A DNA stretch of 15,864 nucleotides, taken from UHGV virus genome UHGV-0248791; one strand, written 5' to 3'. Numbering within the stretch: position 1 is the stretch's first letter; every line of letters starts with the position of its first letter. Below are positions 7 through 15,864 of this stretch, piece by piece. This stretch comes from a virus. A model generated the notes under the pieces. The model was not told where the DNA came from, searched no databases, and saw only the letters and a program-made list of their open reading frames with translations. Made by a program: the position numbers and the translations under genes.

Positions 7-83
7 TGGACCGCCATCGAGGACTCGAACCCCGCGCAACCAGCTTCGAAGGCTGGCGCTCTATCCTGATGAGCTAATGGCGG
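7..83 (-). tRNA. tRNA-Arg (anticodon UCG), phage-borne
   Basis: Reverse complement of 7..83 folds as a 77-nt cloverleaf: acceptor CCGCCAT/ATGGCGG, D-arm GCTC-ATCAGGATA-GAGC, anticodon arm CCAGC-CTTCGAA-GCTGG (anticodon UCG), T-arm CGGGG-TTCGAGT-CCTCG, discriminator T, encoded CCA. Confidence 0.75.
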
Positions 84-90
84 TATGTGA

Positions 91-162
91 TGGTGGCCCT
101 TGCTGGATTTGAACCAGCGACCTGGCGATTATGAGTCGCTCTCACCACTGAGCTAAAGGGCC
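91..162 (-). tRNA. tRNA with CAU anticodon (Ile2/Met type, ileZ-like), with a shortened D-arm
   Basis: Reverse complement of 91..162: acceptor GGCCCTT/AAGGGCC, T-arm GCTGG-TTCAAAT-CCAGC, anticodon loop CTCATAA (CAU), discriminator A, encoded CCA. Only 72 nt because the D-arm is short (3-bp stem, 6-nt loop) and 27:43 is an A-C mismatch, so it may be a degenerate copy. Confidence 0.6.
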
Positions 163-768: not shown

Positions 769-987
769 TAACAGCCGTTAATATAAATTGGCTAATAGAT
801 TTATTTTTATTCAGCCAAGAGCCATGAATAGGATTCGATAGAAAAAAGTTCAGATAAAAATAGAGATCTACTTCACAAATCAAACGAGAAACCAAAACTT
901 ACATCTTGAAATAATCACATTGATTAGATGAATATTTATCGCGCAGTGACATCATTTTTTAATAATAGTTCAAAAAAAGGGCTCACG

Positions 988-2258: not shown

Positions 2259-2642
2259 TTAATTAGAGTTATTAACAACGATATCCATCTCTAACCGGAT
2301 ATCTAATGCCATTAACATCCCTTCAATTATGCCCTCAGCCTTCTGTAACCTTTTCCCGATATAACCATCAGAGCAGCAATGCTTACCTGCCAGTGACATG
2401 AATGTCATACCGACTACATAATAATCTACTAATAAATCGTGCAAATCGCTGTTGTTCTTTTTCAGACGGGCCATGCACCCGCAAATAATCATCGCGTCAT
2501 CGTCACAACATTGCGGGCGAGATTTTACTTTTGAAGTAATTAATCCCTTAAAACCGGCGGCAATGGACGACCAGGTCACATCTTCATGATTATTAGCCGC
2601 CCACGCTCCCCAGCGTTCGAGAACCATCTGAATATCACGCAT
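2259..2642 (-). CDS. Late-gene antiterminator Q (phage 21/DLP12 QuuD-like)
   Basis: 127-aa product [22 protein letters not shown]... with Cys-rich zinc-binding segment ([13 protein letters not shown]...HCCSDG). Start taken at ATG 2642 with GGAGA Shine-Dalgarno; the track's longer ORF begins at a TTG. Confidence 0.8.
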
Positions 2643-2659
2643 CAACTTTCTCCACAAAA

Positions 2660-5356: not shown

Positions 5357-6252
5357 GCGGCAACACCTCCGATACGAGAACGGTAGCTGGGCCAGTTAAA
5401 CGACAACCAGTTGCGCCCGCCATCGGTGATCCTGTCGGCAATCCGGGGACTGATGAACGCCCACAATTCTTCCGGTGAAAGGTTGCTGATCAGGATAGTT
5501 GGCAAAATACCCTCATACCGGGCATTGATAATTTCCTGCAAAATGGCCATTTCAGCCGCACTGCCAAACTGAACGCCGACTTCGTCGACAATCAGCAAAT
5601 CCAGTGACGCATAATGCTCAATGACGTCATCCGCTGTTTTTTCACTGTCATTCCGCCAGCAGTTTTTCACAGCCCGGGTAAGGCGCATCACGTCGGTGAT
5701 CTCCACACTGGCCAGATAGTTACGGATGATGTGTTTTGCCATTGATACCGCCAGATGATTTTTCCCGGTACCGCAACTGCCGGTCATAACAAGACTGGTA
5801 CCGTTCTCCAGCATATCTGGCCAGTTCTCCGCATAGCGGCGACAGGCCGCAAGATTTCTGGCTGCGTCAGGATTAACCTCCAGATAATTATCAAACTCGC
5901 AGTCCCGAAAACGCAGAGCAATTCCGGCGTTATCAGTCAGTTCTTCCGCCTTGAGGGACGACAGTTCCATGGTCAAATCACTGGCCTCAGCGATCAAGCA
6001 GTCAGGGCAGCATGAAATTTTTTCTCTGTCCTCGCCATTACGATCGATCCACACCAGTATATGCGTACGATATTTACCGTGTTTTTCGCAATATCCGCGA
6101 CCTTCACGCATCAGGCAGGAACGATAAGGCCATGGCTTTTCGCCCTTCTGAGCAAATGCAATCTCTGCCCGTAACTCATCCATTTCTGCCCGTAACTCAT
6201 CCATTCGCGCCTGTAGTCTTGTTTGTTTCTCACGTTGGTCAATCGTCATCAT
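5353..6252 (-). CDS. DnaC/IstB-like AAA+ helicase loader with N-terminal Cys/His cluster
   Basis: Walker A GSCGTGKNHLAVSMA and Walker B LLIVDEVG. Start taken at ATG 6252 (GAGGTG 7 nt upstream) rather than the track's GTG at 6261. The N-terminus has a duplicated heptapeptide MDELRAE. Confidence 0.85.
   Translation of the reverse strand: MMTIDQREKQTRLQARMDELRAEMDELRAEIAFAQKGEKPWPYRSCLMREGRGYCEKHGKYRTHILVWIDRNGEDREKISCCPDCLIAEASDLTMELSSLKAEELTDNAGIALRFRDCEFDNYLEVNPDAARNLAACRRYAENWPDMLENGTSLVMTGSCGTGKNHLAVSMAKHIIRNYLASVEITDVMRLTRAVKNCWRNDSEKTADDVIEHYASLDLLIVDEVGVQFGSAAEMAILQEIINARYEGILPTILISNLSPEELWAFISPRIADRITDGGRNWLSFNWPSYRSRIGGVAA
6164..6205. repeat. Perfect 21-bp tandem duplication (2 copies) inside the DnaC-like gene
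   Basis: tctgcccgtaactcatccatt at 6164-6184 and again at 6185-6205; in frame, encoding MDELRAE twice. Confidence 0.9.
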
Positions 6253-6262
6253 CGCTGTCACC

Positions 6263-7255
6263 TCAGAATGTCAATTTGTTACTGGATTTACCGAATTTGT
6301 CAGACATGGCTCCCAGGCCAGCCAGGACATCGACCTGTCGCTGTCGCCCACCTCCGTGAGCGGCTGGCTGTTGCCAGTAATCTTCGAAGTGACGATCGGG
6401 TCCAAAGAACGTCGCAGCCTGCTTCACGAACTGTGTGCCGGTATTTCCTGTAGCACGTACCCAGGCGGCATACCGCTTCACGCCATCAAGCATGGTCTCC
6501 GGTTTTATTCCCTCCCTGATACGGGCTTTCCAGGCTTTGAAGGCTGCTGACTTGGAATTGCCACCAGCACGTTTGGGATATTCCTGCCAGGCCTGTTCAA
6601 ATTCCGGTGAATATTCCTGTCGGGCAGAACGCGCTGGCGCAGACGCGTCAGCGGATGCATCAATAGTGTTTTTAGTCTCCGTTGTAATCTCTGTAGTAAT
6701 CTCTGTATTTGTATCAACATTCGGCGTATCCCCTGTTCCGTTATGACGTCGGGGGGTGTTCCGTTTTAACGTAATAGCTGTATCGCTGATTGCATTATTG
6801 CTGTTACTTTCTGGCGAAACAGAAGAAGGTGTGGTGATGGCCGCAATTGCCTGTGGGTTGATCCCGACAAACAAAATATTGCTGCATTTCACCCCATCGA
6901 GCATTTCCACCGTGCGTAAATCCAGAGTAATAAACCCTGCATCGCGCAGACGCTTCAGCGCATCTGCGGTTTCCCTTTTCCCGAAACCAAACTGCTCAGC
7001 AAACGCCTGGTAGCTTCTTTGCAGTTTGTCGCCCTGAAAACGCTTGCGATATCCCAGCAACGCTCCGGTGTGCTCATCCCTGACCTCTGTCGGGCGGTAC
7101 CAGTAAACGATCTCTGAAAGCAGAGCGATAGCCGTCGCATCCGGACGCCCACTGGGTAGTCGAATATATTTCCACCAGTTCGCAGGTGTAACATTGCCGG
7201 AAATATTAATTTGACCAATAGCCATAACTTCCGGTGTGGGGGCGTAACGGCTCAT
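6263..7255 (-). CDS. Replication initiator / replisome organiser (lambda O-like role)
   Basis: 330 aa, directly upstream of the DnaC- and DnaB-like genes with ATGA overlap to the preceding ORF. Low-complexity central linker (TEITTEITTE, DASADASA) between N- and C-terminal domains; AAGGAGG Shine-Dalgarno before ATG 7255. Confidence 0.65.
   Translation of the reverse strand: MSRYAPTPEVMAIGQINISGNVTPANWWKYIRLPSGRPDATAIALLSEIVYWYRPTEVRDEHTGALLGYRKRFQGDKLQRSYQAFAEQFGFGKRETADALKRLRDAGFITLDLRTVEMLDGVKCSNILFVGINPQAIAAITTPSSVSPESNSNNAISDTAITLKRNTPRRHNGTGDTPNVDTNTEITTEITTETKNTIDASADASAPARSARQEYSPEFEQAWQEYPKRAGGNSKSAAFKAWKARIREGIKPETMLDGVKRYAAWVRATGNTGTQFVKQAATFFGPDRHFEDYWQQPAAHGGGRQRQVDVLAGLGAMSDKFGKSSNKLTF
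6675..6707. repeat. Iteron-like 12-bp direct repeats within the O-like gene (candidate replication origin)
   Basis: GTAATCTCTGTA at 6684-6695 and 6696-6707, preceded by the degenerate copy TCTCCGTTGTA (6676-6686). Lambda ori iterons also lie inside the O gene linker. Confidence 0.4.
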
Positions 7256-7551
7256 ACAACCTCCTTCCGCGGCATGAGAATTGTGTAGCCACGCGCAGGT
7301 TGTAGTCTGGCTTTTGCATCAATAGTAAGCGTTGCAATTTTTCGGATATGAAGATAACCAGCTCTTTCCAGTGCCAGGGTTTCCCTGAATATCGCTTGCT
7401 TAGAACAACAGCAGAAATCAGCAAGCACCTGATGATCAATAACTCTCTCGCCTTCACCGTCTGAAGAACCCGACATCAAAACACGCAACATAATCAGGCG
7501 CTGAATCGGGTTATCGAAAGCACATCCGCACACAAACTGAAAACAGTTCAC
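7252..7551 (-). CDS. Hypothetical protein (99 aa), possible helix-turn-helix DNA-binding protein
   Basis: GTG start overlapping the upstream stop (GTGA) with GGAGG 6 nt upstream; ATGA overlap with the O-like start. Possible HTH segment SKQAIFRETLALERAGYL. Confidence 0.5.
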   Translation of the reverse strand: MNCFQFVCGCAFDNPIQRLIMLRVLMSGSSDGEGERVIDHQVLADFCCCSKQAIFRETLALERAGYLHIRKIATLTIDAKARLQPARGYTILMPRKEVV

Positions 7552-7772
7552 GCCACACCTCCCAGACGCTTAAACATTTTTCCAGACAGAAATACCGCCA
7601 GAGGGTAACTGATGGTGTAGCTACGCCCCTGTAGTTCGCACACGACTTTCTGGCTTTCAGCGTTGACTAGGCAAACCCGCAGAACGTGACCGTTGCTGGT
7701 GGCGAACCACTGCCCCACACGGGGGCAACGGTTGTATCGGTGATACAGGGAATTAACGATGTGGCGGATCAT
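7548..7772 (-). CDS. Hypothetical protein (74 aa)
   Basis: ATG 7772 with GGAGG Shine-Dalgarno 7 nt upstream; ATGA overlap with the upstream ORF. Confidence 0.5.
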   Translation of the reverse strand: MIRHIVNSLYHRYNRCPRVGQWFATSNGHVLRVCLVNAESQKVVCELQGRSYTISYPLAVFLSGKMFKRLGGVA

Positions 7773-7963
7773 GGACGCACCTCCGCCGTAGTTACGTATT
7801 TAACCGGGCTACCTTTCATTGAGATGGTTTCACACATCTCTGCCGCTTTCAGTTCCGCTGTTTTTCTGGATTTATAGCGACGGTGCCAGACAGATACATC
7901 CGTGCGAACTGATACATCGTTTCTGTATTCCGTAGTGGAGATGATGATTTCGTAACTAATCAT
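7769..7963 (-). CDS. Hypothetical protein (64 aa)
   Basis: ATG 7963 with GGAGG Shine-Dalgarno 7 nt upstream; ATGA overlap with the stop of the Rha-family gene. Confidence 0.5.
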   Translation of the reverse strand: MISYEIIISTTEYRNDVSVRTDVSVWHRRYKSRKTAELKAAEMCETISMKGSPVKYVTTAEVRP

Positions 7964-8820
7964 GGGCGAACCTCCTTGTCAGAACCATTCAGCCTGGAAT
8001 CAACAAGTGCAGCGCCAAAAACAGCATCACCAACACGGTCGTACAGTTTGCTAGCCAGCGGAGATTCAACGGCCTTAAGCATTGGATAAAGCTGGCTTGT
8101 CCAGATTTGATGGATTTCACGCAAATGCAGGTATACGCCTCTGGCGTTTCGTGCGACAGCTGACATATCAGACGCATCGGCACCTGATAAACTCTTCTCC
8201 ATCAGGTTAAAGGCGTTGATGTATGCCTCTTTGAACCGGGCAGCACGTTTACCAGTGAAGCCCATGGCAAGAAACGCAAAACCGTCGCGGGTGATTTGGT
8301 AACAAGGGAGCTTGCGTGTACCACCGTTCGGTTGATTTACCGAAATCGATGTCTCCGCAAAATTGCGGGCACAAAACTCAGGGGAACAATCCAGAGTGCG
8401 GATCTTTTTCAGCACATCGTCATGACGCTTGGAGAAGAAGTTGGCAACAGCCAAAGAAGTGGTAACGGCCTGGCCGTTGTCAATGGTGATTTCAGGTTGA
8501 GTGAGGGCTGGGATCGTAGCCATGATGGCAGCCTCCGTTGACAGTGAAAAACTTCCACCACCGGAAACGCCAATTTCACTGGTGGTGAACTGGACGGGGT
8601 TGGCGTAACCGGCGTCAACGGAGACCGGCGCACCTTTCGGTGCCCCCGCCCAGCCCACCATAATCTGGATGTGAGCAAATGCGGACGATAAAAAAGACGC
8701 TGGCGCGTCATACATCGCCGTTGACAATTTCAGGACGCCAATCCCGGCACCCGCTTTATAAGGTGCGGAGACAGTGTAACGTCCCGGAATTGCAGAATCA
8801 ATATGCTGGTGGCGGATCAT
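7960..8820 (-). CDS. Rha-family phage regulatory protein (paralog A); alternative internal start at 8523 would give a 187-aa product
   Basis: Rha-like motifs AVTTSLAVANFFSKRHDDVLKKIRTL...ITRDGFAFLAMGFTGKRAARFKEAYINAFNLME. Two nested starts: ATG 8820 (GGGAGG Shine-Dalgarno, ATGA coupling to the upstream gene) and ATG 8523 (GGAGG Shine-Dalgarno), the latter sitting right at the start of the Rha domain. Confidence 0.6.
   Translation of the reverse strand: MIRHQHIDSAIPGRYTVSAPYKAGAGIGVLKLSTAMYDAPASFLSSAFAHIQIMVGWAGAPKGAPVSVDAGYANPVQFTTSEIGVSGGGSFSLSTEAAIMATIPALTQPEITIDNGQAVTTSLAVANFFSKRHDDVLKKIRTLDCSPEFCARNFAETSISVNQPNGGTRKLPCYQITRDGFAFLAMGFTGKRAARFKEAYINAFNLMEKSLSGADASDMSAVARNARGVYLHLREIHQIWTSQLYPMLKAVESPLASKLYDRVGDAVFGAALVDSRLNGSDKEVRP
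8524..8820 (-). promoter_or_regulatory. Conserved structured leader, copy A (candidate cis-regulatory RNA; may also be translated as an N-terminal extension)
   Basis: Transcript sense: site 1 GTCAACGG (8725..8718), terminator-like GACGC-GCCA-GCGTC plus U6 (8709..8690), hairpin GCACC-GAAA-GGTGC (8643..8630), site 2 CUCCGUUGAC (8623..8614), pseudoknot-type helices ACGCCAA/TTGGCGT interleaved with CACCACC/GGTGGTG (8606..8556), site 3 GUCAACGGAG overlapping the Shine-Dalgarno (8542..8533). Confidence 0.4.
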
Positions 8821-9479
8821 AGGTGCACCTCCCGTTGATTACGACGGAACGCGGAGTGACCCTGGACGGTTTCAGCCTCATGGAATGCTTCAATACAGCT
8901 CTCGTAGTACCGCATTGTGCGCAGACTTAACCCAAGCTGAAGCATCATCAGACCATCAAGGGTGATGTAATAACCACGCAGGGAGTCACCGTAGATGTGA
9001 TAAGTACCCGGTATGAAATTGCGGGTAAAAAACCCGCGTGAGCAGTTCAGATACTCGATTTTGTCAACGATGTTCTGGTGCATGCGCTTGAAATGGCAGG
9101 CAACATGCAGGGAGAAAATAACGGCCTTGCCGTTGACGACTTCGATTTTTAGGAATGGGGAAGTTAGGACAGTAGCCATGATGGCAGCCTCCGTATGCAA
9201 TGGATAACTTCCACCACCGGAGCTGCGAAACTCATGGGTGGTGAACTGAACAGGGTTCGCAGTACCGGCGCATACGGAAACCGGCGAGCCTTTCGGCTCC
9301 CCTGCCCAGCCCACCATAATTCTGGCGTGCGTGAGCGCGGACGATAAAAAAGACGCTGGCGCGTCATATATCGCCGTATGCAATTCCGGGCTGCGACCCC
9401 CGGCACCCGCTTTATAAGGTGCGGAGACAGTGTAACGTCCCGAAATTGCAGAATCAATATTTGGTCTTGAAATGATCAT
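8817..9479 (-). CDS. Rha-family phage regulatory protein (diverged paralog B); alternative internal start at 9179 would give a 120-aa product
   Basis: Degenerate Rha-like region AVIFSLHVACHFKRMHQNIVDKI...ITLDGLMML. ATG 9479 lacks a clear Shine-Dalgarno, whereas internal ATG 9179 has GGAGG 8 nt upstream within a 20-nt block identical to copy A. Confidence 0.5.
   Translation of the reverse strand: MIISRPNIDSAISGRYTVSAPYKAGAGGRSPELHTAIYDAPASFLSSALTHARIMVGWAGEPKGSPVSVCAGTANPVQFTTHEFRSSGGGSYPLHTEAAIMATVLTSPFLKIEVVNGKAVIFSLHVACHFKRMHQNIVDKIEYLNCSRGFFTRNFIPGTYHIYGDSLRGYYITLDGLMMLQLGLSLRTMRYYESCIEAFHEAETVQGHSAFRRNQREVHL
9180..9479 (-). promoter_or_regulatory. Conserved structured leader, copy B (same architecture as copy A with compensatory changes)
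   Basis: Site 1 GCATACGG (9381..9374), identical GACGC-GCCA-GCGTC plus U6, hairpin GAGCC-GAAA-GGCTC (9299..9286), site 2 UUCCGUAUGC (9279..9270), helices CTGCGAA/TTCGCAG interleaved with CACCACC/GGTGGTG, site 3 GCAUACGGAG overlapping the Shine-Dalgarno (9198..9189). Confidence 0.4.
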
Positions 9480-9588: not shown

Positions 9589-10295
9589 CACCGCTGCCAA
9601 CCAATAACCTGAAATAACCCCATTTTCGGGTGATACCAGCGAGTCCCTCGCGGTTCTGCTTCCTCCATAATCCGATAAAAAGCAGCCATAAACGGTTCCA
9701 CAGCAACAATTGCGCGACGTGACAACAATCCGTCCGGCGTCATGAACTCATGGGTGTCTGTAGGAATCTGATAGGCGTTCACCAGATTGCGGCATTTATC
9801 ATCTGACAAACCGGTTTTTGCTTTCAGTTGGCGATATCCGGCATAGCCCTCACGAATAGTGCCCTTTTTAATTTGCTCGACTGTTTCAGCAACGTGGCTG
9901 ACTTTTTCTTCCACCTGAGTGATCCGTTTCTGTTGGCGAACGGCTTCAAGAGCCATCGCGGCAACCATTTCGATTTCGCTCATTGGCTTACGGATCTGTT
10001 CTTCCAGTTCGCGCCAGCGATCTACCAGGCGAGCTGTGAATTCAGGACAGAGCTGTGCGACGACAATGATGCTGTCGCGCTTACCTCGTTCACCTTCGAA
10101 TACATACGCGCTAGAAAATCGGCGAGGCCCAAGTGATTGTTTATTCTCAATTTCCACAGTCTGTGGAAATTGGATGATTCCCTTTTTAGCCAGTGTTTCA
10201 ATAGTTCTCTTAACACTATCTGGTCGGCTTCCCACCAGCTCTGCGATCTCAACGCTGGTCATGGATGCTTTGCCGTTAAAAATTGCGGTGTTCAT
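9588..10295 (-). CDS. Rha/antirepressor-family phage regulatory protein (235 aa)
   Basis: N-terminal MTSVEIAELVGSRPDSVKRTIETLAKKGII...GERGKRDSIIVVAQLCPEFTARLVDRW resembles Rha-family regulators. ATG 10295 has an AGGAGA Shine-Dalgarno 6 nt upstream. Confidence 0.7.
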   Translation of the reverse strand: MNTAIFNGKASMTSVEIAELVGSRPDSVKRTIETLAKKGIIQFPQTVEIENKQSLGPRRFSSAYVFEGERGKRDSIIVVAQLCPEFTARLVDRWRELEEQIRKPMSEIEMVAAMALEAVRQQKRITQVEEKVSHVAETVEQIKKGTIREGYAGYRQLKAKTGLSDDKCRNLVNAYQIPTDTHEFMTPDGLLSRRAIVAVEPFMAAFYRIMEEAEPRGTRWYHPKMGLFQVIGWQR

Positions 10296-10519
10296 TGTTG
10301 GTCTCCTGTGGGCTTGTCATCTTCTGTATTCGCTAGACTTGGGTGTGTATATGGAATGCTCGGATCCAGATGACAAAGAATGGCAACATCCTCCGGAACA
10401 CCTCGCGTTTTCCACTTTCCAACACCTTGACTGCCACGAGGCCTTCCTTTCTTTGGGAACCTGCGACCAATAGCGGCATTGGTTTTAAATTGAATTTTTA
10501 ATATTTCATAAAGGGTCAT
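10292..10519 (-). CDS. Questionable small ORF (75 aa) in the Cro position; no HTH recognisable, may instead be an untranslated leader
   Basis: ATG 10519 is only 17 nt from the operator cluster and has a weak Shine-Dalgarno. The product is basic and low-complexity (GRRFPKKGRPRGSQG). The stop overlaps the downstream ATG (ATGA). Confidence 0.3.
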   Translation of the reverse strand: MTLYEILKIQFKTNAAIGRRFPKKGRPRGSQGVGKWKTRGVPEDVAILCHLDPSIPYTHPSLANTEDDKPTGDQQ

Positions 10520-10536
10520 TCTTTAGTCTCACGCCA

Positions 10537-10608
10537 GATACTTTGTTATCCAACGATGTTAACCATAGGAACCCAAAGTATCAAGAAATTCTGTTACTTT
10601 AGTATCAA
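10537..10608. promoter_or_regulatory. OR-type operator cluster with divergent PRM/PR promoters between cI and the early-right operon
   Basis: Three copies of an AAGTATC core: GATACTTTG (10537-10545, inverted), AAAGTATCAA (10575-10584), TTAGTATCAA (10599-10608). On the minus strand the motif reads TTGATAC, which overlaps a -35-like hexamer (TTGATA, 17 nt, TAACAT). Confidence 0.5.
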
Positions 10609-10630
10609 CAGCCATGAGAGGAGAAGAAAA

Positions 10631-11287
10631 ATGAAGTCTTTAGGTGAACGTCTCATCAACGCACGGCAAAAAGCTGGGTTAACACAAGATGCGTTGGCTA
10701 AAAAAGCTGGGGTCACCAGAGTTGCAATAAGTAAAGCCGAGCAAGGCCTTACAAAAAGTTTCAACGGTGACACCCTTTTTAAAGTTGCAGCTGCACTGCG
10801 GTGTTCACCGCAGTGGCTTCAGAACGGAGATGAAAAAGATAAGCATTGGGAAAATAATGTTAAGAGCTGCCCACAGAGAGACACAGCACACTCTTACCCT
10901 GTAATTAACTGGGTTCAGGCAGGATTATTCGCAACTTCTGGTGATGACTACAACATGTATGATCAGGATAATTGGAGGCATTCTGTAAAATACGCTGGTG
11001 AGAGGGGGTTCTGGCTGGAAGTGCACGGAGACTCAATGACTTCGCCCGTAGGAATAACATTTCCTGAAGGAATGTCGATCCTTGTCAACCCAGATAAAGA
11101 AGTTTTTTCAGGGTGTTACGTCATCGCCAGAAAAAAATCCACCAATGAAGCAACATTCAAAAAATATATTTCTGACATGGGAAAGGCGTTTCTAAAGCCC
11201 CTTAATCCACAATATCCAATCATAGAAATGGACAATGATTGCGAAATAGTAGGTGTTGTGGTTGATGCCAGATGGGATATTTTCTGA
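10631..11287 (+). CDS. CI-type prophage repressor (N-terminal HTH, C-terminal LexA-like S24 peptidase domain)
   Basis: HTH LTQDALAKKAGVTRVAISKAEQG; S24 motifs GDSMTSP (Ser) and a downstream Lys; candidate Ala-Gly cleavage site in WVQAGLF. Start ATG 10631 with AGAGGAGAAG Shine-Dalgarno; the track's longer ORF lacks one. Confidence 0.85.
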   Translation: MKSLGERLINARQKAGLTQDALAKKAGVTRVAISKAEQGLTKSFNGDTLFKVAAALRCSPQWLQNGDEKDKHWENNVKSCPQRDTAHSYPVINWVQAGLFATSGDDYNMYDQDNWRHSVKYAGERGFWLEVHGDSMTSPVGITFPEGMSILVNPDKEVFSGCYVIARKKSTNEATFKKYISDMGKAFLKPLNPQYPIIEMDNDCEIVGVVVDARWDIF

Positions 11288-11320
11288 CCAGACACAAAAC
11301 ACAAAACACAAAAAGAAACC

Positions 11321-11393
11321 AAAGTATCAAAAATCACTTGCCACGCCTTGATACCTTAGTTACCATAAAACAAAGTTCGTAACTGAGGTATCA
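11321..11393. promoter_or_regulatory. OL/PL-type operator and promoter region downstream of cI
   Basis: The same 10-mer as in OR, AAAGTATCAA (11321-11330), plus the inverted copy TTGATACCTT (11348-11357) and AGGTATCA (11385-11392). Precedes the first plus-strand early-left gene. Confidence 0.4.
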
Positions 11394-11397
11394 TCTC

Positions 11398-11901
11398 ATG
11401 ATCAATAAAGCTACAACTCTTGACTGTCTCGAAGAACTGAAAAACCTCGGCAGCCTCATTACACTAATAGCAAAAGCAACACCTGATGCTACGCTCTCTA
11501 GCGATATAGAGTCATGCGCAGGACTGGCATGGGATATGACAAATAGCATATCCAGAAAGCTATCGTCAGCAATGCTTTTACAGAACAAAAATTCTGCAAT
11601 CAACAACCGTCTTCGCACCCAACGCGAAGCCTGCGGCTTAACAACCGCCGAACTCGCCAGGCTGCTCGATCTCGATGAAGAAATCATCATTCAGTGGGAG
11701 AGCGGAGAGTATGAACCAACCATCAGTATGCTTATCCCACTGGCAAATATTCTTGGCTGCGATCCGATGTGGCTGTTAACTGGCGAGGTTACTCCTCCGG
11801 AGCAACCAAAAAGTGAGGAGCAGCAACACCATGACGCATCTCAACAAGTTTGCCCCTTATCTCGCGAAGCTCTTCTGCGGAAGAACCAATACCAATGGTG
11901 A
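11398..11901 (+). CDS. HTH (XRE-family) DNA-binding protein, first gene of the early-left operon; not N-like
   Basis: HTH in the C-terminal half (LTTAELARLLDLDEEIIIQWESGEYEPTISMLIPLANILGCDPMWLLTG). No arginine-rich N-terminal motif. ATG 11398 with GAGG upstream. Confidence 0.55.
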   Translation: MINKATTLDCLEELKNLGSLITLIAKATPDATLSSDIESCAGLAWDMTNSISRKLSSAMLLQNKNSAINNRLRTQREACGLTTAELARLLDLDEEIIIQWESGEYEPTISMLIPLANILGCDPMWLLTGEVTPPEQPKSEEQQHHDASQQVCPLSREALLRKNQYQW

Positions 11902-12029
11902 CATAATCGCCGCTTCGCCCTTCAAGGTACATGCGAACATTTTTATCAATCATTGCGGAAACAGTCTCAATATGAAAACACTTCTGAGACTCGCTATATA
12001 GCAGAACATATAAGTCAGCTGAGGAAGCC

Positions 12030-12395
12030 ATGAAAAAGTTCGAAAACATAACTGTTCTCCATGTTGATGACTTTGATTATACAAACCCGGAACTTCTCCC
12101 GGAGGTTGTAAAGGCAATAGATGTTGCCGATATAGTGATTAGAGAAAAGAGAATTGTCAAAAACAGGCTCGCATGCACTTCAGGAGCAATGACAGAAACA
12201 ACCTCACAGCAAGATAATTACGAAGGCATTTGCCTGGAGCCTGATTCATTTGCAATAAATGTTTATCATTTATTGCATGCAACACAGGTATTACATATGT
12301 CCAGTAATCACGAAACGAAAACACTCGGCAGCGAAATTCTGAATTTTGCATGTGAGTATACAAAAGCTGCTGCCGAAAAAGAATTAGCGCAATAA
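12030..12395 (+). CDS. Hypothetical protein (121 aa)
   Basis: ATG 12030 with a strong GAGGAAG Shine-Dalgarno; no recognisable motifs. Confidence 0.6.
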   Translation: MKKFENITVLHVDDFDYTNPELLPEVVKAIDVADIVIREKRIVKNRLACTSGAMTETTSQQDNYEGICLEPDSFAINVYHLLHATQVLHMSSNHETKTLGSEILNFACEYTKAAAEKELAQ

Positions 12396-12589
12396 CAACA
12401 AATATGCCCTGAACGTTTATTGCGGTTTTATCGCCGGGGATTGTTACAACCTTAATCCACAGGAGGCTTTATTGTGACTTTTATAAAGAATATGGCATCA
12501 CACAAGACCGCCTGCCTTATTGCACAATACGGTGAAAATTACATGCATATTGCCTGCTTATTTCTGCGTAAAGCATACGGGAGATAATA

Positions 12590-12778
12590 ATGCATCAGAA
12601 AACAGCAGAACACGAACAAACCAGAGTATTGCTGACCATCAAAAACGGGAAAGTAATATTCATTCGCCATGTTCATGACGATGAACTTGTAGGAAATCTT
12701 TCAACATTCCTGTTTATTGCAGAAAAGGCAGGATATGACGTTATTGCACCAGCAGATGAAGATGAAGATGAGGAATAA
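12590..12778 (+). CDS. Hypothetical small protein (62 aa) with acidic C-terminal tail
   Basis: ATG 12590 with GGGAG Shine-Dalgarno; C-terminus ADEDEDEE. Confidence 0.5.
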   Translation: MHQKTAEHEQTRVLLTIKNGKVIFIRHVHDDELVGNLSTFLFIAEKAGYDVIAPADEDEDEE

Positions 12779-12783
12779 ATATC

Positions 12784-13365
12784 ATGCAATACGATGAATT
12801 CCAGGCTGAAGCAACAGCCAATGGTATACGAACTGGCAGTATGACGATTGATTATCACGACGCCATACGTCGTCTGGATGCCGGAGAATTCGATACTCCT
12901 AATGTGCGAGGTTTACGTATCCTTCAGTGTCTGGCGCAAGCCGACGAAGCAGGATTACTGGGTAAACTTCCGGTTGAGATGAAGGTTGCTCAGTGGCGAT
13001 GGTTGTATGTGACGACATTCATCAACGAAGAAGAAGACAAGAACGGCACAATTGATATCCTGAATGAACACGGAACAACTGAACACGCCGTGGTATATAA
13101 CGGGATGTATGGGTTTATGACGATATATCCCGGCCCCATTCGATTTGCCTTACAACAGTATATTGAATGGAATTTAATTCAAAAATACGGCGAAGCTGAA
13201 GGAATGGGAAGAGCGCTGTTTCTTTATCAGAAAATGCTCACTACTTCCCCTGATAAAGGTTTCATTCTTTCAGATATGGGTCGAGAAGGGCTTGAAATCC
13301 TTCTGGATGAAATTATTAACGAAATGAATACTCATGGCATGCAATCCGAAACAGATATTAAGTAA
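12784..13365 (+). CDS. Hypothetical protein (193 aa)
   Basis: ATG 12784 with GAGGAA Shine-Dalgarno 8 nt upstream; tightly follows the previous gene. Confidence 0.65.
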   Translation: MQYDEFQAEATANGIRTGSMTIDYHDAIRRLDAGEFDTPNVRGLRILQCLAQADEAGLLGKLPVEMKVAQWRWLYVTTFINEEEDKNGTIDILNEHGTTEHAVVYNGMYGFMTIYPGPIRFALQQYIEWNLIQKYGEAEGMGRALFLYQKMLTTSPDKGFILSDMGREGLEILLDEIINEMNTHGMQSETDIK

Positions 13366-13375
13366 AAGGGACCAC

Positions 13376-13624
13376 ATGACCGTTATCGAGTATATCCAGG
13401 AAAATCCAGATTGCAGTAGAGAAGATATATCCCTCGCACTTGGAAGAAGCGCAACTTCTATCAGTAATGAATTATCACGGTTATTGTGGAATGGGTTAAT
13501 AGTACGAACTGGAGAAAAAAACAAAATGATTCTGTACTGCGTAAACAATCTGCCGTTTGGATACAGCAATCCCCTAAGTGTTATGTTCAACCAGTTACTT
13601 AAACAGGTAAGAAATGGCAACTGA
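13376..13624 (+). CDS. Small putative winged-helix DNA-binding protein (82 aa)
   Basis: ATG 13376 with AAGGGA Shine-Dalgarno; HTH-like segment EDISLALGRSATSISNELSRLLWNGLIV. The track's longer ORF from 13334 overlaps the upstream gene and lacks a Shine-Dalgarno. Confidence 0.5.
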   Translation: MTVIEYIQENPDCSREDISLALGRSATSISNELSRLLWNGLIVRTGEKNKMILYCVNNLPFGYSNPLSVMFNQLLKQVRNGN

Positions 13625-13904
13625 CTCACAACTAACCATAGAAACGGCCCTGAATGTCGGCCTGGCGCTCCTTGGTTATTTTTACATCGTGTTCTGCAGC
13701 GGACGGTGGCTGTCGCTGTTGTTCCTGAAAAAATGGAATAAACGCCGTAAGCAGGATGAACGCCAGAAGGCATTAGAAGCGTTCTATGACGCATTTGAGC
13801 TTAGCCGCATTGAACCAGGTACAACAGCCAGGATAGCGACAAAAGGCGACCTGATGATAGTGATGTTCCGACAGGAGAGAGCAGAGAAAGGGGAATCAGC
13901 ATGA
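13614..13904 (+). CDS. Hypothetical small membrane protein (96 aa, one predicted TM helix)
   Basis: Hydrophobic segment LNVGLALLGYFYIVF followed by a basic stretch KKWNKRRK; ATG 13614 with AGGTAAG upstream; overlaps both neighbours. Confidence 0.5.
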   Translation: MATDSQLTIETALNVGLALLGYFYIVFCSGRWLSLLFLKKWNKRRKQDERQKALEAFYDAFELSRIEPGTTARIATKGDLMIVMFRQERAEKGESA

Positions 13905-14641
13905 AATTTTCCAAATTTTCTGAGTTGGTGAATCGTATTTTGTCCAACAACCACAGCCATCGTCGCGATATGGATGTAACGATCGTTGTTCATTCGCCTG
14001 GCAGCATTGGTTCAACACCCTCAGTTGAAGTTCAGTCAATTCACGCTGGTTTTGATTGGGATTCCGGGAAAGTGCTGATTTTCCCAGCACAGCCACTGAC
14101 CACTCTAACACCAGAACAGATTACTGATATTACTGATAGTGTGCGCAAAGGTCAGTCCTGGCACGCATATCAGGAATACAAGAAGCATAAAGAGCAGTTG
14201 GAAAAATTATCGATTGAACTTGATGCCGCAAAACAGCGCATTGCAGAGCTGGAGGGTAATTTCACGGCGCTGGCAGCGGAGAATGCGGGAATAAAGTCTG
14301 CAATTCCAGAATCACGGGATATTGAAGATGACAATGACAATATGGATGACGTATCTCTCGCGGAAGACTTCGGGTTCAATCATGCAATAGAACGGATGAG
14401 GAGACAGATACCTGAAACGCCAACCACTGATGCTTTCCTGGCTGAAGTCCGGGCGCAGGGGGTGGATGCTGCTATAGAAGCTGCAAAAAATCTGGTGGCC
14501 CAAGAATATGAGTATAAGGATTTCAAAGCGGCGCAGAGTGATTGCTGTATGTACCCTGGTTCAGACCTGGTAGGGAAGGTTGAAATGACTGAGTGGTTAG
14601 TTGACTTTGCTGCCCAGCTTCGCAAAGGAGGCAACCAGTGA
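13901..14641 (+). CDS. Hypothetical protein (246 aa) with central coiled coil
   Basis: ATGA overlap with the upstream gene and GTGA overlap with the downstream gene; coiled-coil-like region KEQLEKLSIELDAAKQRIAELEGNF. Confidence 0.65.
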   Translation: MKFSKFSELVNRILSNNHSHRRDMDVTIVVHSPGSIGSTPSVEVQSIHAGFDWDSGKVLIFPAQPLTTLTPEQITDITDSVRKGQSWHAYQEYKKHKEQLEKLSIELDAAKQRIAELEGNFTALAAENAGIKSAIPESRDIEDDNDNMDDVSLAEDFGFNHAIERMRRQIPETPTTDAFLAEVRAQGVDAAIEAAKNLVAQEYEYKDFKAAQSDCCMYPGSDLVGKVEMTEWLVDFAAQLRKGGNQ

Positions 14642-15297
14642 GCGAAATTAATTACCAGGCACTGCGTGAGGTGGCGGAACGTGCAATTCCAGCAATGGAA
14701 CGCCTGTTAATGTTGCCAGCTGATGATGACTTGTTAAGTGAACAGGAACTTAAAGATTACGGTGTGGATATTGATGCGCTCAACGCCTTCAAATTTCTGG
14801 CCGGACCAGAAACCGTGCTGGCACTACTGGATGAACGGGAAAGAAACCAGCAATACATAAAACGCCGCGACCAGGAGAACGAGGATATTGCGCTAACGGT
14901 AGGGAAACTGCGTGTTGAGCTTGAAGGCAAAGACAAGCTGATTGCAGAGCTTGGAAAACAATGCGCCGAATGGGAGAGAAAAGCATCAAGCAACTTTGAA
15001 GAGTGTGCTGCGATGGCTGAACGTATCGAAGAGTTGGAGAAGACCACCACAGGGCAGGATGCCAATATAAACAGCCAACAGGAACGCGTGACTCAATCAG
15101 CTAATAGGCACGTATATCACTACAACGCAGTGAGCAATGTTAGTGGCATTACCATGTCCGGGATTGCGCAGTCACCTTTCAGAATCAAATCGCAATCCGA
15201 CCTTGAAGAGTTTAAAAGCGCACTTAGCAAGGTTTGTGGTTTCCATGCAACAGCAGTCACATCTCTTTCATATCTTGGGCGTGAGGAAGAAGAGTAA
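14638..15297 (+). CDS. Ea22-like early accessory protein
   Basis: N-terminal MSEINYQALREVAE and the block LDERERNQQYIKRRDQENEDIALTVGKLRVELE resemble lambda Ea22-family proteins (recalled from memory). GTG start with AGGAGG Shine-Dalgarno 6 nt upstream. Confidence 0.55.
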   Translation: MSEINYQALREVAERAIPAMERLLMLPADDDLLSEQELKDYGVDIDALNAFKFLAGPETVLALLDERERNQQYIKRRDQENEDIALTVGKLRVELEGKDKLIAELGKQCAEWERKASSNFEECAAMAERIEELEKTTTGQDANINSQQERVTQSANRHVYHYNAVSNVSGITMSGIAQSPFRIKSQSDLEEFKSALSKVCGFHATAVTSLSYLGREEEE

Positions 15298-15301
15298 AGC
15301 G

Positions 15302-15490
15302 ATGAAAAACCGTAAAGCAAAAATTCTGTTAGCTCGCAGAAACGGTGTTGGGATCTGGCGCTGGTTGAGGATTAGTAACAGACGAGTGAGGTTGGCGGGG
15401 TGTTGCGGGGTGATGGGTCACAGTTGTTGCAAAAAGCCCAGTGCGGCGCAAAACCGCTGGAAAAACCACTTGCGCACTAAAGGAGAGTAA
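15302..15490 (+). CDS. Hypothetical small basic Cys-containing protein (62 aa)
   Basis: ATG 15302 just after the upstream stop; Arg/Lys-rich with CC...CC (LAGCCGVMGHSCCKK). Weak Shine-Dalgarno. The track's longer version from 15137 overlaps the upstream gene by about 160 nt and is unlikely. Confidence 0.3.
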   Translation: MKNRKAKILLARRNGVGIWRWLRISNRRVRLAGCCGVMGHSCCKKPSAAQNRWKNHLRTKGE

Positions 15491-15491
15491 T

Positions 15492-15710
15492 GTGCCAACA
15501 TTATTCAGAAAAGAATATCCGCGAAGAAGTCGAATAACAGAATTCCTGTTTCTCATTCTGTTTGTCGTGTTGATGATACCGATATCCCCGTTAATCCTAG
15601 TCTGGATAATCGGAAAAATAATTGAGCCAGTTATTGAATTGTATAACGACGTGGTATGGGCGTCATTCAACACACTGCACAATAAAATTAATCCGTATAA
15701 GGAAAGCTGA
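15492..15710 (+). CDS. Hypothetical small membrane protein (72 aa)
   Basis: GTG 15492 with AGGAG Shine-Dalgarno 6 nt upstream; hydrophobic core FLFLILFVVLMIPISPLILVWIIG. Confidence 0.4.
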   Translation: MPTLFRKEYPRRSRITEFLFLILFVVLMIPISPLILVWIIGKIIEPVIELYNDVVWASFNTLHNKINPYKES

Positions 15711-15711
15711 T

Positions 15712-15864
15712 ATGGCAACTTTGACAAAAAAAGAACAGGCATGGTTGAACGAATTACAGGAAGTTCTTGATCGCTGTCCATCACCGAAAAAAATTGGTTT
15801 TTACACCATTGGCGATAAAAGCATTTACCTGTATGACCTGCGCCGCATGGATGAAATCATGGAG
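15712..15864 (+). CDS. Hypothetical protein, 5' part only (runs off the window)
   Basis: ATG 15712 with AAGGAAAG Shine-Dalgarno 5 nt upstream; open to the window end (MATLTKKEQAWLNELQEV...). Confidence 0.4.
   Translation, partial: MATLTKKEQAWLNELQEVLDRCPSPKKIGFYTIGDKSIYLYDLRRMDEIME

What the first reader, a model, noticed from the sequence alone, without database searches (positions are those of the whole stretch)
11398..15864. Early-left accessory cassette of about eleven small uncharacterised genes with no N, exo/bet/gam, kil or cIII recognisable
Downstream of PL the plus strand carries tightly packed, mostly overlapping ORFs with good Shine-Dalgarno sequences. They include a 167-aa protein with a C-terminal XRE HTH, a 62-aa protein with a DEDEDEE acidic tail (anti-restriction and DNA-mimic proteins often look like this), an 82-aa winged-helix-like protein, two small membrane proteins, coiled-coil proteins and an Ea22-like protein. 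Such regions often encode superinfection-exclusion, anti-defence or toxin-type functions, but none can be assigned from sequence alone.
Basis: inference. Interest (0 to 1): 0.45.

Follow-up and report, generated by a model that had tools for sequence, protein, structure and literature searches.

The report
Prophage early-left operon hiding antisense gene

Summary
The ORFs are real and lie downstream of a PL-like promoter with operators shared with OR. No N, nutL boxA, exo/bet/gam, kil or cIII is detectable, and related prophages lack them all the way to xis-int.

The region has two parts. Genes g1, A, g2, g3, g4 and g5 (11398-13365, phiP27 L10-L06) form a conserved block. In 80 viral loci it travels with nine different repressor types. 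g1 is an XRE-HTH protein whose N-terminal domain matches the repressor type one-to-one. "A" (11789-12049, minus strand, 86 aa) is under purifying selection (dN/dS 0.07-0.34). It belongs to an uncharacterised family of at least 366 clusters. It starts head-to-head with g2, overlapping by 20 nt, and synonymous sites in g2's first 50 codons are abnormally conserved.

Genes g6-g12 are mosaic lambdoid accessory genes: a winged-helix protein, DUF4752, two Ea22-family proteins and DUF4014.

No defence, anti-defence or toxin family matches. The acidic tail of the 62-aa protein is a variable repeat that other alleles lack. g5 and A have confident models but no known fold.

Verdict: largely ordinary, with one modestly novel embedded module.

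The parts
10631..11287 (+). Context: cI-like LexA/S24-family repressor gene (218 aa), co-oriented with the cassette
   Evidence: phrog_4 'transcriptional repressor' E=2e-52. Annotated 'LexA family protein' in RefSeq relative H1.
11317..11393 (+). OL/PL region: promoter-like site at 11338-11366 (TTGCCA-17-TACCAT) embedded in operator-type inverted repeats
   Evidence: Promoter scan. Inverted repeats I1 and I3. Exact AGTATCAA occurs only at OR (10577, 10601) and here (11323).
11398..11901 (+). g1: 167-aa XRE-type HTH protein (phiP27 L10). It has an N-terminal helical 'X' domain that is immunity-specific, a conserved HTH (residues 72-126), and an unselected C-terminal tail (about residues 131-167).
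   Evidence: PF01381 at 43.3 bits against cutoff 23. phrog_4739 E=4e-99. N-domain class matches repressor class one-to-one in 82 loci. Tail absent in phiP27 and ASU11, and most substitutions there fall on g1 codon position 2.
11789..12049 (-). A: 86-aa protein gene on the opposite strand. It is tail-to-tail with g1 (113-nt overlap) and head-to-head with g2 (20-nt start overlap). GGAG lies 8 nt before the ATG.
   Evidence: phrog_6104 E=1e-49. Homologs of 82-88 aa in Escherichia, Salmonella and Citrobacter. dN/dS 0.07-0.34, and 0.07-0.14 in codons 1-50. Family of 366 clusters. AF2 pLDDT about 90 for residues 11-72, topology beta-beta-alpha-beta-alpha.
12030..12395 (+). g2: 121-aa protein (phiP27 L08). 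It has a conserved N-domain (residues 1-50, IVKNR motif) and a C-terminal helical domain homologous to g1-type N-domains.
   Evidence: phrog_5451 E=3e-83. Length 121 aa in all loci. C-domain against PhiR49_2 L10 N-domain: 43% identity, E=7e-10. Against ASU11 gp50: E=2e-4.
12030..12180 (.). Zone of nucleotide-level constraint inside the 5' end of g2. This is where A's promoter and 5'-UTR must lie.
   Evidence: Synonymous diversity is 0.005 in codons 1-40 against 0.062 in codons 41-121 (p=0.0014). Third-position pi of 0.010 is below first+second-position pi of 0.021 in codons 8-50, and pi is 0.000 at 12030-12059. RNA folding is unremarkable, z -0.8 to -1.5.
12474..12587 (+). g3: conserved 37-aa micro-protein with an AGGAGG Shine-Dalgarno, translationally coupled to g4 (TAATAATG)
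   Evidence: 62-73% identical in phiP27, ASU11, Citrobacter and Salmonella loci. dN/dS 0.07-0.15 with an invariant C-terminal LRKAYGR.
12590..12778 (+). g4: 62-aa acidic protein (phiP27 L07 family), made of a conserved ~45-residue core plus a variable (ED)n tail
   Evidence: phrog_340 E=2e-21, with weak matches to C-terminal parts of anti-repressor PHROGs. Tail length is variable and the tail is absent in other alleles. The tail is encoded by an (AGATGA)x3 repeat.
12784..13365 (+). g5: 193-aa protein (phiP27 L06 family), mixed alpha/beta, no known fold
13376..13624 (+). g6: 82-aa winged-helix (MarR-like) protein
   Evidence: phrog_1687 'MarR family' E=1e-24, and phrog_142 'Ren-like' E=5e-5. 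MarR_2 scores 22.9 bits, below the cutoff of 27.
13614..13904 (+). g7: 96-aa DUF4752 protein with one probable transmembrane segment
   Evidence: PF15944 at 137 bits. Kyte-Doolittle maximum 1.67 at residues 12-30.
13901..14641 (+). g8: 246-aa Ead/Ea22-family coiled-coil protein with its own N-terminal domain
   Evidence: PF13935 at 37.7 bits against cutoff 27. phrog_368 and phrog_6026.
14638..15297 (+). g9: 219-aa Ead/Ea22-family protein
   Evidence: PF13935 at 104.3 bits, residues 2-133. No sequence match to any PDB chain, so the lambda Ea22 C-terminal domain is not shared.
15302..15490 (+). g10: 62-aa very basic (+16) Cys-rich protein
   Evidence: phrog_1380 E=8e-32. Net charge.
15492..15710 (+). 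g11: 72-aa DUF4014 membrane protein (GTG start after AAGGAG)
   Evidence: PF13198 at 87 bits. phrog_1832. Kyte-Doolittle maximum 2.99 at residues 19-37.
15712..15864 (+). g12: 5' part (51 codons) of an 87-aa gene, cut off by the window end
   Evidence: phrog_1714 E=4e-29, residues 1-51 of 87. Full-length copies in H1 and PhiR49_2.

Best explanation
The interval is the promoter-proximal 4.5 kb of the repressor-controlled early-left (PL) operon of a phiP27-type lambdoid prophage. This phage type has a Q antiterminator but no N or nutL, and no exo/bet/gam. Relatives sit at the yecE-yecN/cmoA site and end the operon with xis-int.

The interval has two layers.

(1) A conserved immunity-proximal module, g1-A-g2-g3-g4-g5 (phiP27 L10-L06). 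g1 occupies the position that N holds in lambda. It is an XRE-type DNA-binding protein. Its HTH is shared between phages, but its N-terminal helical domain switches together with the repressor type. g2 carries a paralogous helical domain. Gene A lies on the opposite strand between them, so every PL transcript is antisense to the whole A mRNA. A's own expression signals must lie inside the first ~150 nt of g2, where synonymous sites are abnormally conserved. I infer that A and the PL operon are expressed in a mutually exclusive way. A would be made when PL is repressed (in the lysogen) and shut off by transcriptional collision and antisense pairing once the repressor is inactivated. g1 and g2 would be the early regulators of this small circuit.

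(2) A mosaic distal part (g6-g12) of exchangeable lambdoid accessory genes. Its only partly characterised relatives are the Ea22 proteins, which favour lysogeny.

Shown: the gene map, the promoter and operator context, selection on A, g3 and g2, the linkage statistics, the domain relationships, and the absence of known defence, anti-defence or toxin domains. Inferred: the timing of A expression, the antagonism with PL, and any regulatory role for g1 and g2.
For: PL and operators. No plus-strand terminator of note in 11398-15864. Relatives and integration site.

A is a real gene. phrog_6104 E=1e-49. Homologs of 82-88 aa in four genera. dN/dS 0.07-0.34, with third-position bias in the minus frame.

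Conserved architecture: the g1 / A / g2 arrangement recurs in ASU11, Citrobacter and Salmonella prophages with different repressors.

Linkage: of 80 A-containing viral loci, 80 have the g1 HTH, 79 have g2 (76 with the same 20-nt head-to-head overlap), 77 g3, 75 g4 and 66 g5, but only 38 have this window's cI type. g1 N-domain class matches repressor class one-to-one across 9 classes and 82 loci with no exception.

Domain relationships: the g2 C-domain is homologous to g1-type N-domains. One family member fuses an A-domain to an HTH.

Partner outside phages: a g2N-like ORF with the [VI][VI]K[ND]R motif sits divergently next to A in three independent non-enterobacterial loci. It is the only place the motif occurs among 1,199 ORFs. 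One of these ORFs is hit by an HMM trained only on enterobacterial sequences, E=5e-4.

Embedded signals: synonymous-site constraint in g2 codons 1-50 and a diversity trough centred on the start overlap, not explained by RNA structure.

Ea22 family: PF13935 hits, with a pro-lysogenic role reported in PMC7093339 and PMC10834534.
Against: No canonical sigma-70 promoter for A was found on the minus strand between 12050 and 12200. The conserved TTGACA and GGAG upstream of A coincide with conserved g2 codons (IVKNR, ITVLH), so they cannot be separated from coding constraint.

There are no expression data, so the timing of A expression is pure inference.

In three viral contigs the A homolog sits co-oriented in the replication module after DnaB, with no g2N partner. 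The antisense arrangement is therefore not intrinsic to the family.

A is truncated in the viable phage phiP27, so the proposed circuit is dispensable.

The one-to-one link between the g1 N-domain and the repressor could be mere physical linkage, since the two lie about 110 bp apart.

The diversity trough could partly reflect recombinational homogenisation rather than functional constraint.

Only one of the distant g2N-like ORFs is statistically supported by HMM.
Confidence: 0.6

Rival explanations
1. One reading: the cassette is mainly a collection of anti-defence, superinfection-exclusion or toxin-type genes. For example, the acidic 62-aa protein would be a DNA mimic or anti-restriction factor, and the membrane proteins would be exclusion factors.
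For: Early-left regions of lambdoid phages are known to hold such genes (general knowledge). g4, g5, g8 and g9 are strongly acidic, with net charges of -8, -14, -15 and -15. g7 and g11 are small membrane proteins. g6 has a weak match to 'Ren-like exclusion protein' phrog_142, E=5e-5. Most of the products have unknown function, so the idea cannot be excluded.
Against: PADLOC gives no specific hit. No Pfam, NCBIfam or PHROG anti-restriction or toxin family matches. The acidic tail of g4 is a length-variable repeat that other alleles lack. The models of g5 and A match no known anti-defence fold in the PDB or BFVD. g6 matches MarR-type regulators far better than it matches Ren.
Confidence: 0.25
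2. A and the g2 N-domain are a stand-alone two-gene system, for example a toxin-antitoxin-like or abortive-infection pair, that phages have captured. g1 would be its transcriptional regulator.
For: The A + g2N-like pair occurs outside phages, in a Thermodesulfovibrionales chromosome next to an unrelated PIN toxin-antitoxin pair, and in soil or water metagenome contigs. Both proteins are small. The module is accessory, since A is truncated in phiP27. One family member fuses the A-domain to an antitoxin-like XRE HTH.
Against: The two genes are divergent with overlapping starts, not co-transcribed as in type II systems. Neither matches any toxin or antitoxin family. A has no nuclease-like catalytic set. 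In other phages A occurs without g2N.
Confidence: 0.12
3. g1 is the functional replacement for lambda N or CII: an immunity-specific early regulator needed for expression of the left operon or for the lysis-lysogeny decision. A would be only a passenger moron.
For: g1 is the first gene after PL. Its N-terminal domain co-varies perfectly with the repressor type, as N does with immunity in lambda, 21 and P22 (the comparison with N is general knowledge). PHROGs labels a related family 'CII-like regulator'. No N or nut site is detectable.
Against: g1 has no arginine-rich motif and is an HTH DNA binder, not an RNA-binding antiterminator. BLASTP against lambda CII is not significant, E=0.07. No plus-strand terminators that would call for antitermination are predicted. 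Perfect co-variation is also expected from simple adjacency.
Confidence: 0.15
4. The minus-strand ORF A is a non-coding artefact, an open frame that arises by chance opposite real genes.
For: It overlaps two plus-strand genes. RefSeq does not annotate it in the best relative. No canonical promoter was found.
Against: dN/dS is 0.07-0.14 in the 128-nt stretch that overlaps no plus-strand gene. Length is conserved in four genera. A profile finds 366 clusters of small proteins with the same motif. The AF2 core is confident.
Confidence: 0.03

Closest known systems
Early-left genes L10-L06 of Stx2e phage phiP27 (NC_003356), and the same block in phages PhiR49_2 and ASU11 and in yecE-integrated Stx prophages
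   Same: They are homologous gene for gene: g1=L10, g2=L08, g4=L07, g5=L06. DNA identity to phiP27 is 84.5% over 41% of the query, and 97% to PhiR49_2. The position directly after the repressor gene is the same.
   Different: All of these genes are annotated as 'hypothetical' or 'unknown' in those records. In phiP27 the 3' part of A and the g1 tail are replaced by a 521-bp segment carrying two other ORFs. The distal genes g6-g12 differ between these phages.
Lambda PL operon and its exo-xis (ea) accessory region, including Ea22
   Same: It is a repressor-controlled leftward early operon ending in xis-int. It contains two PF13935 Ead/Ea22-family proteins with an N-terminal region and a coiled coil. 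Ea22 is an early, tetrameric protein that favours lysogeny (PMC10834534, PMC7093339).
   Different: There is no N/nutL, cIII, kil, gam, bet or exo. The C-terminal domains of g8 and g9 are unrelated to the solved lambda Ea22 C-terminal domain. No orf60a, orf61, orf63 or ea8.5 homologs were detected.
Lambda N (positional analogue only)
   Same: Both are the first gene after PL, and both have a part that is specific to the immunity type (general knowledge for N).
   Different: g1 is an XRE-type HTH protein with no arginine-rich motif. No nut boxA is present. It is not homologous to N.
Antisense and convergent-transcription switches: lambda OOP RNA against cII, the face-to-face promoters of P2 and 186, and 'excludon' gene pairs
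   Same: Oppositely oriented transcription units overlap, so expression of one must interfere with the other. A's transcript is antisense to the 3' end of g1 and the 5' end of g2.
   Different: Here the antisense unit encodes a conserved protein rather than only an RNA. The promoters are not mapped and no interference has been shown. This is an analogy of mechanism, not membership.
DNA-mimic anti-restriction proteins (Ocr, ArdA)
   Same: g4 is small and acidic (net charge -8) and is encoded early.
   Different: No family match. The acidity is concentrated in a 7-residue tail that varies in length and is missing from other alleles. Ocr and ArdA instead display charge along a folded surface (general knowledge).

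Membership tests
Lambdoid early-left (PL) operon | Starts directly downstream of, and co-oriented with, the cI-type repressor gene. The promoter is overlapped by operators shared with OR. | tested here: met
   Repressor at 10631-11287. Promoter at 11338-11366. Inverted repeats. Exact AGTATCAA only at OR and OL.
Lambdoid early-left (PL) operon | Uninterrupted co-oriented genes running to xis-int | tested here: met
   Relatives H1 and PhiR49_2 continue co-oriented to the excisionase and integrase genes. No strong plus-strand terminator in the window. The window itself ends before xis-int.
Lambdoid early-left (PL) operon | N antiterminator with nutL (boxA/boxB) as the first function | tested here: not met
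   No N-family hit for any product. boxA matches are at chance level (9 against 8.8 expected) and none is near PL.
Lambda-type recombination and host-takeover set (exo, bet, gam, kil, cIII) | Homologs of these proteins in the left operon | tested here: not met
   No Pfam, PHROG or NCBIfam hit. They are also absent from the full left arm of relatives.
XRE/Cro-CI HTH (PF01381) | Pfam score above the gathering threshold | tested here: met
   g1 scores 43.3 bits against a cutoff of 23, residues 72-126.
Lambda CII | Significant sequence similarity beyond a generic HTH | tested here: not met
   BLASTP E=0.07 against lambda CII (sequence entered from memory). The 'CII-like' label is only the name of a PHROG family.
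Ead/Ea22 family (PF13935) | Pfam score above the gathering threshold | tested here: met
   g9 scores 104.3 bits and g8 scores 37.7 bits, against a cutoff of 27.
Lambda Ea22 proper | Shares the solved Ea22 C-terminal dimeric domain | tested here: not met
   Neither g8 nor g9 matches any PDB chain at E<=1 apart from chance hits. The paper itself notes that the C-terminal domain distinguishes lambda Ea22 from Stx-phage homologs (PMC10834534).
MarR / winged-helix regulators | Pfam score above the gathering threshold | tested here: inconclusive
   g6 scores 22.9 bits on MarR_2, below the cutoff of 27, but matches phrog_1687 'MarR family' at E=1e-24.
Known anti-phage defence systems (PADLOC-DB 2.0) | A specific hit to a defence-system protein model | tested here: not met
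   Only generic HTH (RmrA, capH) and winged-helix (CARF/CasR C-terminal) similarities.
DNA-mimic anti-restriction proteins (Ocr/ArdA) | Family match, or a conserved acidic surface | tested here: not met
   No family hit. The acidic tail is a variable repeat absent from other alleles.
Curated anti-defence families (Acr, Gad, Tad and others) | A hit to dedicated anti-defence HMMs | not testable with these tools
   No anti-defence library is available. Only the PHROG categories could be checked, and they gave no anti-defence hit.
Type II toxin-antitoxin | Co-transcribed gene pair with a recognisable toxin or antitoxin fold | tested here: not met
   A and g2 are divergent with overlapping starts. 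No toxin or antitoxin family hit for A or g2.
phrog_6104 / A family | Motif VLLWSxSQxxFHIET...N...DY in a protein of 60-110 aa | tested here: met
   E=1e-49. All 60 sampled relatives hit phrog_6104. Alignments A1 and A4.

The most novel reading that the evidence does not exclude
Gene A and the g2 N-domain form a previously undescribed two-gene unit. It is arranged head-to-head with overlapping starts, and it occurs from Thermodesulfovibrionales to E. coli prophages. In phiP27-type phages it has been wired, through the shared helical domain of g2 and the immunity-specific domain of g1, into a second bistable switch next to cI/Cro. This switch would report or reinforce the state of PL. The A family (at least 366 clusters, no Pfam model, no known fold) would then be a new class of small regulatory or anti-regulatory proteins.
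Probability: 0.2. Interest if true: 0.6.

Novelty: new member of a known kind. Interest (0 to 1): 0.38.

Why it matters
As a whole this is one more mosaic accessory region of a lambdoid prophage, and its sequences are already in public phage records as 'hypothetical'.

Three things are worth keeping:

1. A conserved protein gene is systematically missed or mis-annotated. RefSeq omits A, g3 and g6 and truncates g2 to 68 aa in the best relative. A belongs to a large uncharacterised family.

2. The immunity region of these N-less phages extends into the first domain of the first PL gene. This gives a concrete, testable candidate for an immunity-specific early function.

3. The head-to-head A/g2 arrangement, with suppressed synonymous variation, is a compact system for testing antisense or collision-based control in a prophage carried by about 6% of complete E. 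coli genomes, including Stx-phage relatives.

Tried and rejected
- Sequence searches of g2, g4, g5, A, g8 and g9 against the PDB, and profile searches with the A, g5 and g2 alignments, gave only chance or designed-protein hits.
- Rfam found nothing in 10200-15864 at E<=1 beyond two chance-level hits, and nothing at gathering threshold inside the finding.
- PADLOC and NCBIfam gave only generic HTH similarities.
- Literature: no paper mentions DUF4752. The phiP27 papers found do not treat these genes.
- Promoter for A: no canonical sigma-70 site. The conserved TTGACA and GGAG are confounded by g2 coding. RNA structure in the constrained zone is unremarkable.
- Co-variation between the g1 N-domain and the g2 C-domain within a phage is not seen. 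g1N is hypervariable, while g2C is nearly invariant in E. coli.
- Iterating the g2N HMM did not bring in the L088 and L091 ORFs.
- Searches for A-family genes in isolated phages using distant members found only PhiR49_2 and ASU11.
- A TTATTGC motif cluster as a candidate g1 operator: enriched here, but absent from the Salmonella loci, so I did not assign it.
- The 27-bp palindrome in g2 is perfect only in this allele, so I did not interpret it.

Full report
**Setting.** The window is a lambdoid prophage. From left to right it carries two tRNAs, an OmpC-like porin, Q, a NinG-like gene, DnaB, a DnaC-like gene, an O-like gene, two Rha-type antirepressor genes and a cro-like gene, all on the minus strand except the porin. 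A LexA/S24-type repressor gene follows on the plus strand at 10631-11287. The finding begins just after this repressor. The region 11288-15864 matches 2,971 of 5,426 complete E. coli genomes in parts, but only 14 genomes cover 80% or more of it, so it is a mosaic. The best relative (UPEC957C) shows the same gene string continuing to an excisionase and an integrase next to yecE (DUF72), yecN and cmoA. Among isolated phages the closest are PhiR49_2 (97% identity), phiP27 (84.5% over the first 41% of the query) and Stx prophages integrated at yecE.

**Checking the observation.** A promoter-like site (TTGCCA-17-TACCAT, 11338-11366) lies between the repressor gene and 11398. It sits inside inverted repeats. 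All three exact copies of the half-site AGTATCAA in the window flank the repressor gene, two at OR and one here. This supports the PL assignment.

Reading the DNA directly gives 12 plus-strand genes with Shine-Dalgarno sequences:

| Gene | Coordinates | Length |
|---|---|---|
| g1 | 11398-11901 | 167 aa |
| g2 | 12030-12395 | 121 aa |
| g3 | 12474-12587 | 37 aa |
| g4 | 12590-12778 | 62 aa |
| g5 | 12784-13365 | 193 aa |
| g6 | 13376-13624 | 82 aa |
| g7 | 13614-13904 | 96 aa |
| g8 | 13901-14641 | 246 aa |
| g9 | 14638-15297 | 219 aa |
| g10 | 15302-15490 | 62 aa |
| g11 | 15492-15710 | 72 aa |
| g12 | 15712 to window end | partial |

Only three junctions overlap. Six are gaps of 1-10 nt and two are larger (128 and 78 nt). 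No product matches N, Exo, Bet, Gam, Kil or CIII. boxA-like sites are at chance level, and relatives lack these genes throughout the left arm. No strong plus-strand terminator is predicted, which fits a single N-independent transcription unit.

**A missed gene on the other strand.** The minus-strand ORF at 11789-12049 (86 aa) matches phrog_6104 at E=1e-49. Gene callers find homologs of 82-88 aa in Escherichia, Salmonella and Citrobacter, with invariant CFHIET, RMYL and GDYV motifs. Against the ASU11, Citrobacter and Salmonella copies, substitutions concentrate at third positions of the minus frame. dN/dS is 0.07-0.34 overall and 0.07-0.14 for the first 50 codons, most of which overlap no plus-strand gene. 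I call this gene A.

A starts at M1, because Salmonella has Ile at position 7, and GGAG lies 8 nt upstream. In the 113 nt where A overlaps g1, most changes fall on g1's second codon position. The g1 tail differs completely between loci and is absent from phiP27 L10 and ASU11 gp50. That tail is therefore an unselected read-through.

The 37-aa g3 is also real. It is 62-73% identical in distant loci, has dN/dS of 0.07-0.15, and keeps an invariant C-terminus. The full 121-aa g2 is conserved in length and N-terminal sequence, although RefSeq often annotates only a 68-aa C-terminal piece.

**Two layers.** The arrangement g1 forward, A reverse, g2 forward recurs next to unrelated repressors in ASU11, Citrobacter and Salmonella prophages. 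Counts in 80 A-containing viral loci:

| Gene | Loci with a hit |
|---|---|
| g1-type HTH | 80 |
| g2 | 79 (76 with the identical 20-nt head-to-head start overlap) |
| g3 | 77 |
| g4 | 75 |
| g5 | 66 |
| this window's cI type | 38 |
| g6 | 37 |
| g7 | 34 |

So g1-A-g2-g3-g4-g5 (phiP27 L10-L06) is a conserved module, while g6-g12 are exchangeable.

The N-terminal domain of g1 falls into nine classes, and each pairs with exactly one repressor class across 82 loci, with no exception. The mosaic junction lies at the boundary between the N-domain and the HTH. The immunity-specific segment therefore reaches into the first domain of the first PL gene, much as N is immunity-linked in lambda, 21 and P22 (general knowledge). 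Simple adjacency could give the same pattern.

The C-terminal helical domain of g2 is homologous to g1-type N-domains: 43% identity and E=7e-10 against PhiR49_2 L10, and E=2e-4 against ASU11 gp50. It does not co-vary with them.

**The A family.** A profile search finds 366 clusters at E<=1e-3. Nearly all are proteins of 60-110 aa with the consensus VLLWSxSQxxFHIET...N...DY. None has a Pfam or NCBIfam family, and all fall in phrog_6104, which has no known function. One member fuses the A-domain to an XRE HTH, and two carry tandem A-domains.

In three independent non-enterobacterial loci (a Thermodesulfovibrionales chromosome and two metagenome contig types), a small ORF lies divergently against the start of the A homolog. 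It carries the motif [VI][VI]K[ND]R at the same distance from its start as IVKNR in g2. That motif occurs in 4 of 1,199 ORFs from those loci, and all four are this ORF. An HMM trained only on enterobacterial g2 N-domains ranks one of them first, at E=5e-4. The others are not significant by HMM.

In three viral contigs, by contrast, A lies co-oriented in the replication module after DnaB, without this partner. In phiP27 the 3' part of A is replaced by 521 bp carrying two other ORFs, so A is dispensable in a viable phage.

**Evidence for embedded signals.** Because A and g2 start head-to-head, A's promoter and leader must lie inside g2. Among 28 g2 alleles, synonymous diversity is 0.005 in codons 1-40 and 0.062 in codons 41-121 (p=0.0014), while amino-acid diversity is not reduced.

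Across 39 distinct segments, nucleotide diversity has a trough centred on the start overlap (0.000 at 12030-12059). In g2 codons 8-50, third positions (0.010) vary less than first and second positions (0.021). This reverses the normal pattern seen in codons 51-121 (0.063 against 0.023). A's own third positions next door are more variable (0.045). RNA folding of this zone is unremarkable.

This indicates a non-coding constraint at the DNA or sequence level, consistent with promoter or operator elements for A. No canonical sigma-70 site was found, and recombinational homogenisation is an alternative explanation.

**Mechanism.** Shown: PL transcription must run antisense through all of A. A is a selected protein gene with constrained upstream sequence. 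g1, g2, A and an HTH are connected by shared domains, a fusion protein and conserved neighbourhood. Inferred: A is expressed when PL is repressed and is silenced by collision and antisense pairing after induction, with g1 and g2 acting as early regulators of this circuit. I put about 0.3 on that specific switch and about 0.85 on the structural description.

**The distal genes and the functional hints.** g8 and g9 are Ead/Ea22-family proteins. Lambda and Stx-phage Ea22 are early, tetrameric and favour lysogeny, and their C-terminal domains differ between phages (PMC7093339, PMC10834534). Neither g8 nor g9 matches the solved lambda C-terminal domain. g6 is a MarR-like winged-helix protein. g7 and g11 are DUF4752 and DUF4014 membrane proteins. 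g10 is a +16-charged Cys-rich peptide. g12 belongs to phrog_1714. All have unknown function.

PADLOC finds no defence system. The acidic tail of g4 is encoded by a short tandem repeat. It ranges from ADEDEE to AD(ED)8E within one allele group, and it is absent from the other alleles, which share only the ~45-residue core. This weakens the DNA-mimic idea. g5 gives a good model (pLDDT 87, pTM 0.83) with no structural relative in the PDB or BFVD. g1 is not a lambda CII homolog.

**Verdict.** The general interpretation stands, but the specific functional hints do not. The cassette is an ordinary member of a known kind of region, and its sequences are already public as hypothetical genes. The modest novelty lies in three things: the embedded antisense gene and its large uncharacterised family, the immunity-linked domain of g1, and the constrained head-to-head A/g2 junction.

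Noticed in passing
window 8578-8766 and 9234-9422 (minus strand): There are two tandem copies of a C4 antisense RNA (83 and 81 bits) followed by isrK (62 and 59 bits), each upstream of a Rha-type antirepressor gene. The long 'N-terminal extensions' shared by ORFs 7960-8820 and 8817-9479 are these RNA elements read as protein. The real Rha starts are probably the internal Met in '...AAIMAT...'.
   Followed up: partly
window 7-83 and 91-162 (minus strand): tRNA-Arg(TCG) and tRNA-Met/Ile2-type(CAT) genes lie at the left edge of the window, as in the tRNA clusters of Stx and other lambdoid phages.
   Followed up: no
window 928-2070 (+) next to Q at 2259-2657 (-): An OmpC/NmpC/Lc-like porin gene (380 aa) lies beside the Q antiterminator gene, as in DLP12 and PA-2-type prophages (the comparison is from general knowledge).
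   Followed up: no
window 12252-12747: The heptamer TTATTGC occurs 11 times in the window against 2.9 expected (0 of 200 shuffles reached 11). Seven copies lie in this 500-nt stretch from the 3' half of g2 to g4, including two inverted pairs (12252/12270 and 12389/12417). The cluster is shared with PhiR49_2, partly shared with phiP27 and ASU11, and absent from the Salmonella loci. It may be a protein-binding site array. I did not assign it.
   Followed up: partly
window 12251-12277: A perfect 27-bp palindrome (TGCAATAAATG-TTTAT-CATTTATTGCA) lies inside g2. Most other alleles have one mismatch because they encode FAV instead of FAI.
   Followed up: partly
window 12754-12771: The acidic tail of g4 is encoded by an (AGATGA)x3 repeat. 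The copy number differs between otherwise near-identical alleles, giving tails from ADEDEE to AD(ED)8E. This looks like slippage-type length variation.
   Followed up: yes
window 11292-11313: An exact (ACACAAA)x3 tandem repeat lies between the repressor stop codon and the OL/PL operators.
   Followed up: no
L003 (phiP27) 4483-5003: A 521-bp segment replaces window 11784-11942. It carries an 82-aa plus-strand ORF and the annotated minus-strand L09, whose likely real start is a 35-aa ORF after GGAGGA. It truncates A and removes the g1 tail. Some E. coli genomes (H39, H40) show the same longer variant.
   Followed up: partly
L001 (RefSeq NZ_CM149646) 6100-8600: There are annotation gaps in the best RefSeq relative. 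A, g3 and g6 are not annotated although their sequences are intact, and g2 is called as a 68-aa C-terminal fragment.
   Followed up: yes
L097 1258-1650, L098 12835-13026, L095 9896-10237: In other viral contigs the A-family gene sits co-oriented immediately after DnaB (with stop-start overlap in L098), or next to replication genes. The family is therefore also used inside early-right or replication operons.
   Followed up: partly
window 6263-7255 (minus strand): The replication O-like protein contains the repeat '...TEITTEITTET...', which suggests iteron-type DNA repeats (a possible origin) inside the gene, as in lambda O (not analysed).
   Followed up: no
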